A DNA stretch of 64,000 nt. Source: a phage. The DNA lies in sequence record PV874203.1; one strand, given 5' to 3'. Of the stretch, positions 33,125-33,728 are shown piece after piece (position 1 is the stretch's first letter; every line of letters begins with the position of its first letter). A model generated the notes under the pieces. That model was not told the origin of the DNA. It ran no database searches and saw only the letters and a list, made by a program, of their open reading frames with translations. The position numbers and the translations under genes are program-made.

Positions 33125-33166
33125 AAGAGAAAACCCCGTCTATTCCTAGACAGGGCTTGAGTTTTT
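33125..33166 (-). terminator. hairpin terminator
   Basis: CCCCGTCTA-TTCC-TAGACAGGG hairpin flanked by A/T runs, just after the Dps-like gene. Confidence 0.5.
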
Positions 33167-33728
33167 AGTAAGACACATCACCACTTGAGTGGGACATGTT
33201 GCTCTTGACGAAGTAGCAATACTTGCCGAGACCTTCATTGATTTCTTGAAGCATACTCTGATCAACTGGATAGGTGGCTAAATCACCATCAAACTCATCC
33301 ATCTTCTCAATAATACACATCAAGGTCATGCACATATCAGAGAGCATACCGTCCATATCTAGGTCAGCATTACCTTCTGAGAACCAAGCATGAGAAAGAT
33401 AATTGGCTGCTGTAGCGTCCACTTTAACACAGTGGTAACGCATACGTTCAGCAATACGATCTCCTACTTGTCGTGCGTAATCTTCCAGCTCATCAAACAT
33501 ACCATGAACACCCTGAAATCCTGCACCAGAGACGTTCCAGTGGTAGTTTTTAGCTTTGATATGCAAGAGTTCCATGTTAGCTTGTAAGCAGCTCAGGATG
33601 TGTTCTAGGCTGTTTCCACTAATCATACCCTGCATAGTTTCAAGGCGAGAGATTGAAAGCTCAGATCGGTCTAACATGTTATATTCTGCACGACCGATTT
33701 CAGGTAAATCAAAGACATTCTTATGCAT
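33165..33728 (-). CDS. Dps-like ferritin-fold protein
   Basis: NYHWNVSGAGFQGVHGMFDELEDYARQVGDRIAERM matches the Dps signature (HWNVKG..F..H..FDE...D.IAER). Confidence 0.65.
   Translation of the reverse strand: MHKNVFDLPEIGRAEYNMLDRSELSISRLETMQGMISGNSLEHILSCLQANMELLHIKAKNYHWNVSGAGFQGVHGMFDELEDYARQVGDRIAERMRYHCVKVDATAANYLSHAWFSEGNADLDMDGMLSDMCMTLMCIIEKMDEFDGDLATYPVDQSMLQEINEGLGKYCYFVKSNMSHSSGDVSY

What the first reader, a model, noticed from the sequence alone, without database searches (positions are those of the whole stretch)
33165..33728. Dps-like ferritin-fold protein encoded by a phage
Seen in sequence: NYHWNVSGAGFQGVHGMFDELEDYARQVGDRIAERM matches the Dps ferroxidase-site signature, with an extra roughly 50-aa N-terminal extension. 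Established knowledge: Dps proteins sequester iron and protect DNA from oxidative damage. Inference: a phage copy could protect replicating or packaged DNA, or manipulate host iron and redox state during infection; this is unusual phage cargo.
Basis: partly seen in the sequence, partly recalled or inferred. Interest (0 to 1): 0.5.

Follow-up and report, generated by a model that had tools for sequence, protein, structure and literature searches.

The report
Known Dps mini-ferritin gene of Kuravirus
This is a real, intact and strongly conserved Dps-type iron-detoxifying protein gene in a phiEco32-like E. coli phage, but databases have annotated it as Dps-family since 2008, so the finding is correct and not new, although nobody has tested what the protein does for the phage.

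Summary
Window 33165..33728 (minus strand) is a 187-aa ORF containing the quoted peptide. It is 97.9% identical to phiEco32 gp67, annotated "DNA-binding protein, member of the Dps family" since 2008. It matches Pfam Ferritin above threshold, PHROG 3636 (E=2.6e-55) and solved Dps structures. All Dps ferroxidase-centre residues are present (H63, W64, H75, D79, D90, E94). The AlphaFold model (pLDDT 89.7) superposes on Dps subunits at 1.2-1.6 Å. dN/dS is about 0.06.

- The N-terminal extension is about 28 residues longer than a typical Dps, or 40 residues before helix A, not ~50. It is acidic, not lysine-rich.
- Dps genes are rare in phages (at least 213 of 50,697 records) but recurrent and already described.

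The gene is a middle gene inside the dNTP-synthesis/redox module (dCTP deaminase, thioredoxin, ThyX). In most relatives it is translationally coupled to a conserved unknown gene, gp68; here an HNH endonuclease is inserted between them.

The most likely role is a dodecameric mini-ferritin that removes Fe2+ and H2O2/O2 during phage DNA replication. Virion association is unresolved. Novelty: already known. Interest is low to moderate.

The parts
33165..33728 (-). dps gene (phiEco32 gp67 orthologue), 187 aa, 21.2 kDa, pI 4.7
   Evidence: ORF; Pfam Ferritin, PHROG 3636 and PDB Dps hits; 97.9% identical to phi32_67; composition
33447..33542 (-). Codons for residues 63-94, which carry the inter-subunit ferroxidase-centre residues H63, W64, H75, D79, D90 and E94
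   Evidence: An ungapped match to E. coli Dps 44-83 puts them on H51, W52, H63, D67, D78 and E82. They are invariant in the phage clade. In the 81-sequence alignment they are invariant except D79, which is D or E.
33609..33728 (-). Clade-specific N-terminal extension (residues 1-40): a tail with the conserved MH(N/K)NxFDLP motif, plus an extra predicted helix at 19-37 with invariant R28
   Evidence: Alignment; AF2 secondary structure, pLDDT 63-77 in this part; net charge -2, only 1 Lys; dN/dS 0.16-0.23
33735..33740 (-). Shine-Dalgarno sequence GGAGGG of dps, lying inside the 3' end of the HNH ORF
   Evidence: Sequence read directly
33131..33158 (-). 12-bp GC-rich hairpin followed by a U-rich tract, immediately after the dps stop codon: a terminator or attenuator-like element
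   Evidence: Terminator scan; RNA fold -17.8 kcal/mol, z=-3.7; a hairpin of different sequence is kept at the same place in phiEco32 and SU7
33721..34215 (-). Free-standing HNH homing endonuclease inserted between gp68 and dps; its stop overlaps the dps start by 8 nt
   Evidence: Pfam HNH_3 and PHROG 59; absent at this position in phiEco32, IMEP8 and SU7
34212..34538 (-). gp68 homologue (PHROG 10984, unknown function, 108 aa), the conserved upstream partner gene of dps
   Evidence: adjacent to dps with overlapping stop/start in phiEco32, SU7, Privateer, LAh_6 and metagenomic contigs L008 and L009
34578..34621 (-). First middle promoter: a sigma70-like TTCACT-16-TATGAT site (34621..34594) plus the phage-sigma (gp36) motif AATGTATA (34585..34578), upstream of gp68
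   Evidence: Scan; motif search, 8 sites found against 2.95 expected; the SU10 paper describes this promoter upstream of CDS68; the SU7 record annotates a promoter there
32928..33107 (-). gp66 homologue, 59 aa, two hydrophobic segments (small membrane protein), PHROG 9296, unknown function
32644..32919 (-). Thioredoxin (gp65 homologue), part of the same redox and nucleotide-metabolism module
   Evidence: Pfam PF00085
31975..32631 (-). Flavin-dependent thymidylate synthase ThyX
   Evidence: Pfam Thy1, E=1.5e-44
35218..35751 (-). dCTP deaminase
   Evidence: Pfam DCD, E=3.6e-34

Best explanation
The ORF encodes a genuine, functional member of the Dps (mini-ferritin) family that belongs to the core middle-gene set of phiEco32-like (Kuravirus) phages and their prolate-headed relatives. 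Shown here: it has the Dps fold, the complete inter-subunit ferroxidase-centre residue set, strong purifying selection, and a fixed position in the dNTP-synthesis/redox gene module, transcribed from the first middle promoter. Inferred from what is established for the Dps family: it assembles into a hollow dodecamer, binds Fe2+ at the twelve sites on the dimer interfaces, oxidises it (preferentially with H2O2, also with O2) and stores Fe3+ inside. This removes both Fenton reactants while phage DNA is being replicated and while oxygen- and ROS-sensitive phage enzymes are working (ThyX, thioredoxin-dependent steps, and anaerobic RNR in related phages). DNA binding by the lysine-rich-tail mechanism of E. 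coli Dps is unlikely, because the protein and both of its tails are acidic. The clade-specific N-terminal extension more likely mediates a protein-protein contact, possibly with the co-conserved gp68 or on the surface of the dodecamer.
For: Family: Pfam PF00210 above its cut-off; PHROG 3636 at E=2.6e-55; 60 of 61 PDB sequence hits are Dps; the clade profile retrieves 7877 Dps-family proteins. Ligands: H63, W64, H75, D79, D90 and E94 align without gaps to E. coli Dps H51, W52, H63, D67, D78 and E82. They are invariant in 81 sequences, except D79, which is D or E. Fold: AF2 pLDDT 89.7 with helices A, B, BC, C and D; the top 50 Foldseek PDB hits are all Dps or Dps-like dodecamer subunits, at rmsd 1.2-1.6 Å and TM-score up to 0.93 of the target. 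Selection: dN/dS 0.056 (vs phiEco32) and 0.066 (vs SU7), 0-0.03 in the bundle; the gene is present in 98 of about 100 Kuravirus-like records. Context: next to dCTP deaminase, thioredoxin, ThyX, PhoH, and in relatives NrdD, NrdG or ATP-cone proteins, in six divergent lineages. Timing: middle promoter upstream of gp68. ThyX has an O2-consuming NAD(P)H-oxidase side reaction and is oxygen-sensitive in vivo (PMC3498832). The same rationale has been proposed for Dps genes of gut phages (PMC8008677).
Against: No biochemical or genetic test of any phage Dps was found. Dodecamer formation, ferroxidase activity and iron storage are inferred, not shown. The protein is below the NCBIfam equivalog cut-offs (34.5 bits against 114), so it is a divergent subfamily. 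The acidic residues lining the iron-entry pore could not be mapped, because no model coordinates were available. The clade is unusually rich in Cys (3.0% against 0.2% in cellular Dps) and Met, which is odd for a protein handling Fe and H2O2 and is unexplained. The E. coli host already has its own Dps, so the added benefit is unclear. Detection in CsCl-purified Privateer virions hints at a different or additional role.
Confidence: 0.6

Rival explanations
1. It acts mainly as a DNA-binding or DNA-compacting protein, as most database records name it, coating or condensing replicating phage DNA independently of iron chemistry.
For: Many Dps proteins bind DNA. Records call it 'DNA-binding protein'. 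Related Grimontviridae-type copies have short basic N-tails, net +2 to +3. Lactococcal Dps proteins use an N-terminal helix for DNA binding (my own knowledge, not checked here), and this protein has an extra predicted N-terminal helix.
Against: The protein has pI 4.7 and net charge -15. The N-terminal 44 residues have net charge -3 with a single Lys, and the C-tail has no basic residue. The lysine-rich tail that mediates DNA binding in E. coli Dps is therefore absent. Complete conservation of the ferroxidase residues argues that iron chemistry is what is selected. The 'DNA-binding' label is inherited from the family name, not from an experiment.
Confidence: 0.15
2. It is a virion-associated protein, either capsid-internal cargo or surface-bound, that protects the packaged genome or is delivered into the next host. 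The clade-specific N-terminal extension would serve as the targeting or anchoring element.
For: The paper reports the Privateer Dps as detected by mass spectrometry with CsCl-purified virions; the same analysis verified ten predicted virion-associated proteins. Peptides were also found in the SU10 preparation. Some uncultured-phage proteins named 'prohead protease' contain a Dps-fold domain. The extension carries a conserved MHNNxFDLP motif of unknown function.
Against: The SU10 sample was only PEG-precipitated, and it also contained DNA polymerase, PhoH, thioredoxin and the sigma factor. The SU10 cryo-EM study's list of structural and ejection proteins (gp20-24 and others) has no gp67 or Dps. 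The gene is a middle gene in the replication module, not in the late structural cluster. Privateer-type Dps lacks the long extension. By inference, a ~255-kDa, ~9-nm dodecamer could not pass through the tail channel, and iron-loaded or DNA-bound Dps could co-band with phage in CsCl. The fusion partners of long Dps-domain proteins showed no recognisable capsid or protease domain.
Confidence: 0.12
3. It is an iron store or donor that supplies iron to phage or host iron-dependent enzymes needed for dNTP synthesis, such as the Fe-S activase NrdG or class I RNR, rather than a detoxifier.
For: The gene is adjacent to NrdD and NrdG in Aeromonas phage LAh_6 and lies near NrdD in contig L008. Dps proteins store up to several hundred Fe atoms (established knowledge).
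Against: The Kuravirus dps neighbourhood examined here (about 30.5-37.2 kb of the window) and the corresponding phiEco32 region show no RNR gene; the rest of the window was not screened for RNR. No iron-release partner has been identified. A lytic cycle of tens of minutes leaves little time for a store-then-release cycle (inference).
Confidence: 0.1
4. The ORF is a decaying or non-functional remnant, or is something else such as the 'integrase' named in many records.
For: Many GenBank and RefSeq Kuravirus records label it 'integrase' or 'hypothetical protein'.
Against: dN/dS is about 0.06 with saturated synonymous divergence. The ORF is intact in about 98 genomes. All catalytic residues are kept. 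There is no similarity to any integrase family. Peptides have been detected. The 'integrase' label is a propagated annotation error.
Confidence: 0.01

Closest known systems
phiEco32 gp67 (phi32_67, YP_001671812 / ABY52868) and its Kuravirus orthologues such as SU10 CDS67
   Same: 97.9-100% amino-acid identity, the same length (187 aa), and the same position in the middle-gene cluster between gp68 and gp66/thioredoxin.
   Different: In this window an HNH homing endonuclease is inserted between gp68 and dps, and the 3' hairpin has a different sequence. The few amino-acid differences are confined to residues 14-23 of the N-terminal extension.
Cellular Dps mini-ferritins with solved structures: M. 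smegmatis Dps2 (2Z90), B. anthracis Dlp-1 and Dlp-2 (1JI5, 1JIG), B. subtilis MrgA (2CHP), B. brevis Dps (1N1Q), L. innocua Dps (1QGH), E. coli Dps (1DPS)
   Same: Four-helix bundle with a BC helix; the identical ferroxidase-centre pattern HW-x10-H-x3-D-x10-D-x3-E; rmsd 1.2-2.2 Å over 134-147 residues.
   Different: Only 19-26% identity in the listed Foldseek alignments, and the match to the host's own E. coli Dps is weak (E about 0.1), so this is not a recent capture from the host. About 28 extra N-terminal residues with an additional helix. Acidic rather than lysine-rich tails. High Cys and Met content, with a conserved DMCMTL motif in helix C.
Dps genes of other C3-morphotype podophages: Salmonella 7-11 (Moazamivirus), Proteus Privateer, Cronobacter GAP52 and vB_CsaP_009, Aeromonas LAh_6 (Lahexavirus)
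   Same: 31-45% identity, the same dNTP/redox module, and the same gp68-family neighbour. The clade is separated by a score gap from cellular Dps.
   Different: These copies are about 146-157 aa with short basic N-tails and lack the MHNNxFDLP motif and extra helix.
Dps-like genes in unrelated phages: Lactobacillus myophages, gut 'Gratiaviridae', Campylobacter CP220-like, Streptomyces, Clostridium and Synechococcus phages
   Same: Ferritin-like Dps domain carried by a phage; the proposed role is oxidative-stress and iron management during infection.
   Different: Probably independent acquisitions, judged from the low identity and different genome contexts (not tested by phylogeny). None has been characterised experimentally in the literature I could search.

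Membership tests
Dps (DNA-binding protein from starved cells; mini-ferritin; Pfam PF00210 / InterPro IPR002177) | Significant sequence-profile match to the family | tested here: met
   PF00210 at 31.1 bits against a cut-off of 24.5. phmmer against the PDB: 60 of 61 hits are Dps, best E=2.6e-9. The clade profile retrieves 7877 PF00210 proteins named Dps or starvation-inducible DNA-binding protein.
Dps (DNA-binding protein from starved cells; mini-ferritin; Pfam PF00210 / InterPro IPR002177) | Four-helix bundle with a short BC helix in the long crossover loop and no ferritin-type fifth (E) helix | tested here: met
   AF2 pLDDT 89.7: A 41-65, B 71-98, BC 107-112, C 125-150, D 154-176. All of the top 50 Foldseek PDB hits are Dps or Dps-like proteins, rmsd 1.2-1.6 Å for the best.
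Dps (DNA-binding protein from starved cells; mini-ferritin; Pfam PF00210 / InterPro IPR002177) | Inter-subunit ferroxidase-centre residues (E. coli H51, H63, D67, D78, E82, plus W52) | tested here: met
   H63, H75, D79, D90, E94 and W64 align without gaps. They are invariant in the clade. Across 81 sequences they are invariant except D79, which is D or E.
Dps (DNA-binding protein from starved cells; mini-ferritin; Pfam PF00210 / InterPro IPR002177) | Assembly into a hollow dodecamer with 23 symmetry | not testable with these tools
   Only monomer prediction was available and coordinates are not exposed. This needs AlphaFold-Multimer, SEC-MALS or cryo-EM.
Dps (DNA-binding protein from starved cells; mini-ferritin; Pfam PF00210 / InterPro IPR002177) | Fe2+ oxidation (H2O2 preferred over O2) and formation of an iron core | not testable with these tools
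   Biochemical assay required. No published assay of a phage Dps was found.
Dps (DNA-binding protein from starved cells; mini-ferritin; Pfam PF00210 / InterPro IPR002177) | Lys/Arg-rich flexible N- or C-terminal tail mediating DNA binding (typical of E. coli-type Dps, not universal in the family) | tested here: not met
   Residues 1-44 have net charge -3 with 1 Lys; the C-tail has no basic residue; whole-protein pI 4.7. This lowers the claim 'DNA-binding protein', not the claim of family membership.
E. coli-type Dps equivalog (NCBIfam NF006975) | Score above the equivalog cut-off | tested here: not met
   34.5 bits against a cut-off of 114. The protein is a divergent phage subfamily, not an orthologue of the host Dps.
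PHROG 3636 (phage 'DNA binding protein', the Dps-like family) | Full-length profile match | tested here: met
   E=2.6e-55, residues 35-180 on profile positions 2-149 of 149.
Classical ferritin / bacterioferritin (24-mer maxi-ferritins) | Intra-subunit di-iron site (Glu and ExxH motifs on helices A-D) and a fifth E helix | tested here: not met
   No ferritin or Bfr appears among the PDB sequence hits or the top 50 structural hits. The only ExxH (E53-H56) has a non-conserved His, replaced by Y or R in relatives. The C-terminus after helix D is 11 low-confidence residues.

The most novel reading that the evidence does not exclude
gp68 and Dps form a conserved, translationally coupled two-gene module at the head of the middle operon of all prolate C3-type podophages. 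In the Kuravirus branch both proteins gained N-terminal extensions. The module might be a phage-specific device, for example a Dps cage tethered by gp68 to replicating or packaging DNA, or loaded into or onto the prolate capsid as an encapsulin-like ferritin cargo. That would explain the detection of Dps in CsCl-purified Privateer virions. Either version goes beyond plain cytoplasmic iron detoxification.
Probability: 0.12. Interest if true: 0.65.

Novelty: already known. Interest (0 to 1): 0.25.

Why it matters
As a discovery it adds little, because the gene has been recognised as Dps-family for more than 15 years and has its own phage orthologue group. It still matters in three modest ways. 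(1) No phage-encoded Dps has been characterised experimentally, although the gene is core to a whole lineage of therapeutic-candidate coliphages (Kuravirus) and is under very strong purifying selection, so a knock-out and biochemical study would fill a real gap. (2) The ambiguous virion proteomics and the conserved gp68-dps pairing give concrete, testable hypotheses. (3) Many GenBank and RefSeq Kuravirus records mislabel this gene 'integrase'. That could wrongly flag strictly lytic therapy phages as temperate and should be corrected.

Tried and rejected
(1) I looked for what Dps domains are fused to in long multi-domain relatives (P0225, P0238, P0239, P0158 and others), to test the 'prohead protease-Dps' hint from BFVD names. 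Pfam finds only the ferritin domain, so nothing was learned. I could not retrieve the BFVD sequences themselves.
(2) The structure prediction of gp68 had low confidence (pLDDT 59.9). The fold search gave only non-significant generic small beta-barrel hits (Tudor, SH3, PWWP, integrase CTD; E of 0.008 or worse). I assign no function.
(3) The SU10 cryo-EM paper and its supplements do not mention gp67 or Dps.
(4) Literature searches for experimental work on a phage Dps found none.
(5) Model coordinates are not exposed to scripts. I therefore could not examine the placement of the Cys and Met residues, the docking of the N-terminal helix, or the pore residues.
(6) I rejected the reading as ferritin, bacterioferritin or DpsL, and the 'integrase' label (see the membership tests).
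(7) I considered recent capture of the host dps and rejected it, because E. coli Dps is only a weak match (E about 0.1).
(8) The T4-type capsid-targeting and cleavage motif idea for the N-terminus rests only on my recollection of the L/I-x-E rule, and the sequence does not fit it. I dropped it.

Full report
OBSERVATION. Window 33165..33728 holds an ATG-initiated ORF of 187 codons on the minus strand. A strong Shine-Dalgarno sequence (GGAGGG, 33740..33735) lies 6 nt upstream of the ATG. The coordinates given are therefore exactly those of the ORF including its stop codon.

WHAT GENOME THIS IS. The surrounding 8 kb matches about 100 phiEco32-like coliphage genomes (Kuravirus, Gordonclarkvirinae) at 91-94% nucleotide identity. 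The protein is 100% identical to the copy in phage Ptacy1532 and 97.9% identical to phiEco32 gp67. Both the 2008 GenBank record and the RefSeq record of phiEco32 annotate gp67 as 'DNA-binding protein; member of the Dps family'. The SU10 paper states that CDS67 'contains a DPS domain' and is one of the few middle genes shared by all five C3-morphotype phages then known (PMC4281155). The Privateer paper also discusses the Dps homologue (PMC7881722). The finding is therefore a rediscovery of an annotated gene.

FAMILY TESTS.
- Sequence: Pfam Ferritin (PF00210) scores 31.1 bits against a gathering score of 24.5, though only on residues 55-108. PHROG 3636 matches end to end at E=2.6e-55. In a phmmer search of the PDB, 60 of 61 hits are Dps proteins. 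The best are M. smegmatis Dps2, B. subtilis MrgA, and B. anthracis Dlp-2 (E about 3e-9 to 1e-8). E. coli Dps is only a weak hit (E about 0.1), so the gene is not a recent capture from the host.
- Equivalog level: NCBIfam equivalog models for Dps match far below their cut-offs. The protein is a divergent subfamily.
- Wider family: a profile of the phage clade retrieves 7877 Dps-family proteins, with a clear score gap between phage-clade members (at least 125 bits) and cellular Dps (82 bits or less). An exhaustive HMMER scan of 1.84 billion representatives gives 615 hits at E of 1e-3 or better.

LIGANDS. The match to E. coli Dps residues 44-83 is ungapped with an offset of 12. H63, W64, H75, D79, D90 and E94 therefore correspond to H51, W52, H63, D67, D78 and E82, the inter-subunit ferroxidase centre plus its adjacent Trp; the residue numbering is established knowledge. 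All six are invariant in 15 phage-clade sequences that go down to 48% identity.

FOLD. An AlphaFold2 model built on the 81-sequence alignment has mean pLDDT 89.7, and above 95 throughout the bundle. It shows the Dps topology: helix A 41-65, B 71-98, the short BC helix 107-112, C 125-150 and D 154-176. It also shows an extra lower-confidence helix at 19-37. All of the top 50 Foldseek PDB matches are Dps or Dps-like dodecamer subunits, at rmsd 1.2-1.6 Å for the best and TM-score up to 0.93 of the target. No ferritin, bacterioferritin or unrelated four-helix bundle competes.

THE N-TERMINAL EXTENSION.
- There are 40 residues before helix A.
- There are 62 residues before the first His, against a median of 34 in cellular Dps and 32 in the 7-11/Privateer-type phage copies.
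- The clade-specific addition is therefore about 28 residues, or 12 relative to E. coli Dps.

The extension consists of a tail with a conserved MH(N/K)NxFDLP motif and a helix with an invariant Arg (SxxRLE). It is acidic to neutral, with net charge -2 to -3 and one Lys. The C-tail has no basic residue, and the whole protein has pI 4.7 and net charge -15. The lysine-rich tail mechanism of DNA binding known from E. coli Dps is therefore absent, and the database label 'DNA-binding protein' has no support from the sequence. The shorter Grimontviridae-type copies do have small basic N-tails.

SELECTION AND DISTRIBUTION. dN/dS is 0.056 against phiEco32 and 0.066 against SU7, where dS is about 1.8 and therefore saturated. 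It is 0-0.03 in the bundle and 0.16-0.23 in the extension. About 98 of 100 Kuravirus-like records carry the gene at 80% identity or more. More distant copies (31-45% identity) occur in Salmonella 7-11-like, Proteus Privateer-like, Cronobacter and Aeromonas prolate podophages. With an ordinary cellular Dps as the query, at least 213 of 50,697 phage records (0.4%) carry a Dps-like gene, including Streptomyces, Campylobacter, Clostridium, Listeria, Lactobacillus and Synechococcus phages. A 2021 survey already reported Dps genes in gut phages and proposed an oxidative-stress role (PMC8008677). 'Unusual' is fair; 'new' is not.

CONTEXT AND EXPRESSION. On the minus strand the order in the window is:
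- dCTP deaminase (35218..35751)
- three small ORFs
- the middle promoter, a sigma70-like site at 34621..34594 plus the gp36 motif AATGTATA at 34585..34578
- gp68 homologue (34212..34538)
- HNH endonuclease (33721..34215)
- dps
- a hairpin (33158..33131)
- gp66, a small membrane protein
- thioredoxin
- ThyX
- a ligase-like N-terminal domain protein
- PhoH

The SU10 paper describes exactly this promoter upstream of CDS68 as the first middle promoter, usable by both the sigma70 and the phage-sigma holoenzymes. The SU7 record annotates it. The 12-bp hairpin after dps folds at -17.8 kcal/mol (z=-3.7). phiEco32 and SU7 keep a hairpin of different sequence at the same place, which suggests a conserved terminator, attenuator or RNA-stability element.

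In phiEco32, SU7, Privateer, LAh_6 and two large metagenomic phage contigs (L008, L009), a gp68-family gene (PHROG 10984, unknown function) directly precedes dps with overlapping stop and start codons. The neighbours are again dCTP deaminase, thioredoxin, ThyX, ATP-cone proteins or NrdD and NrdG. In 7-11 the two genes are 1.3 kb apart. In this window the HNH insertion separates them, so tight coupling is not essential.

MECHANISM. The steps shown here are the fold, the ligands, purifying selection, membership of the middle-gene class and the redox/dNTP neighbourhood. The remaining steps are inferred from what is established for the family: dodecamer formation, Fe2+ oxidation at the twelve dimer-interface sites (preferentially with H2O2), and storage of Fe3+ inside the shell. 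This would remove both Fenton reactants during phage DNA synthesis. ThyX, always nearby, has an O2-consuming NAD(P)H-oxidase side reaction and is oxygen-sensitive in vivo (PMC3498832). That the product of this side reaction is H2O2 is my own background knowledge. Relatives add the oxygen-sensitive anaerobic RNR. This fits a role in protecting the replication and dNTP machinery and nascent DNA. I give it 0.6.

VIRION ASSOCIATION. Peptides of the protein were found in SU10. However, that sample was only PEG-precipitated, and it also contained DNA polymerase, PhoH, thioredoxin and the sigma factor, so it says nothing about packaging. In Privateer the Dps was detected with CsCl-purified virions; the same analysis verified ten predicted virion-associated proteins. 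The SU10 cryo-EM study's structural-protein list, which includes ejection proteins gp20-24, does not contain it. By inference, an assembled dodecamer cannot pass through a tail channel, and dense iron-loaded or DNA-bound Dps may co-band with phage. Packaging is therefore unresolved. I rate it 0.12 as a primary role.

SIDE INVESTIGATIONS THAT FAILED. The gp68 structure prediction was poor (pLDDT 59.9) and its fold search was non-significant. Long Dps-domain fusion proteins have no recognisable partner domain. No coordinates were available for residue-level geometry. No experimental paper on a phage Dps was found.

VERDICT. Novelty is 'already known' and interest is 0.25. The residual interest lies in four things: the complete lack of experimental data on phage Dps, the conserved gp68-dps pair, the clade-specific N-terminal extension with its Cys/Met enrichment, and the ambiguous virion proteomics.

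Noticed in passing
window 33165-33728; NC_070993.1 PQC59_gp064; P0005 (phage IME267): Many GenBank and RefSeq Kuravirus records label this Dps ORF 'integrase'. This is a propagated misannotation with no integrase homology, and it could wrongly suggest a temperate lifestyle for therapy-candidate phages.
   Followed up: yes
window 33721-34215 (-): A free-standing HNH_3 homing endonuclease (164 aa, GTG start) is inserted precisely between gp68 and dps, overlapping gp68 by 4 nt and dps by 8 nt. It is absent at this site in phiEco32, IMEP8 and SU7, and present in XT18. SU7 and contig L008 have HNH genes at other positions in the same module.
   Followed up: partly
window 34212-34538 (-); L001 3679-4008; L003 4139-4423; L005 4109-4462; L008 4681-5001; L009 4720-5001: gp68 (PHROG 10984, no Pfam match, conserved HRDxLxR...W...PxNxxVIxxQ...N...NV pattern) is a conserved upstream partner of dps, with overlapping stop and start codons across divergent prolate podophages. 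Kuravirus-type gp68 carries about 22 extra N-terminal residues, in parallel with the N-terminal extension of its Dps. The AF2 model is poor (pLDDT 60, a small beta-barrel plus a helix) and no significant fold match was found.
   Followed up: partly
window 33165-33728, residues 128-143 and Cys47/100/133/138/171: The Kuravirus-like Dps clade is unusually rich in Cys (3.0% against 0.2% in cellular Dps) and Met (7.0% against 4.3%). It has a conserved GMLxDMCMTL motif on helix C and mostly conserved C133, C138 and C171. A thioredoxin gene is always close by. The significance is unknown.
   Followed up: partly
window 33131-33158 (-): A strong hairpin directly after the dps stop codon. phiEco32 and SU7 keep a hairpin at the same place with a different loop and 3' arm, and with a poorer U-tract. 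It may attenuate read-through into gp66, thioredoxin and ThyX, or stabilise the gp68-dps mRNA.
   Followed up: partly
window 34578-34585 (-) and seven other sites (13351, 23126, 23188, 30150, 52072, 57123, 61730): The phage-sigma (gp36) promoter core AATGTATA occurs 8 times in the window, against 2.95 expected. The site upstream of gp68 coincides with a sigma70-like promoter, matching the dual middle promoter described for SU10. I did not examine the other sites.
   Followed up: partly
window 31649-31972 (-): A 107-aa ORF matches only the N-terminal NAD+-binding Ia domain of NAD-dependent DNA ligase (PF22745, E=2.5e-35). phiEco32 annotates the equivalent gp62 as 'DNA ligase', although it is far too short to be a complete ligase.
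   Followed up: no
BFVD hits A0A6J7XDU5, A0A6J7WPK9, A0A6J7WIS1: Several uncultured Caudovirales proteins of 333-763 aa named 'Prohead protease' contain a Dps-fold domain. If the names are right, these would be Dps domains fused to capsid-maturation proteins. I could not retrieve the sequences to check.
   Followed up: no
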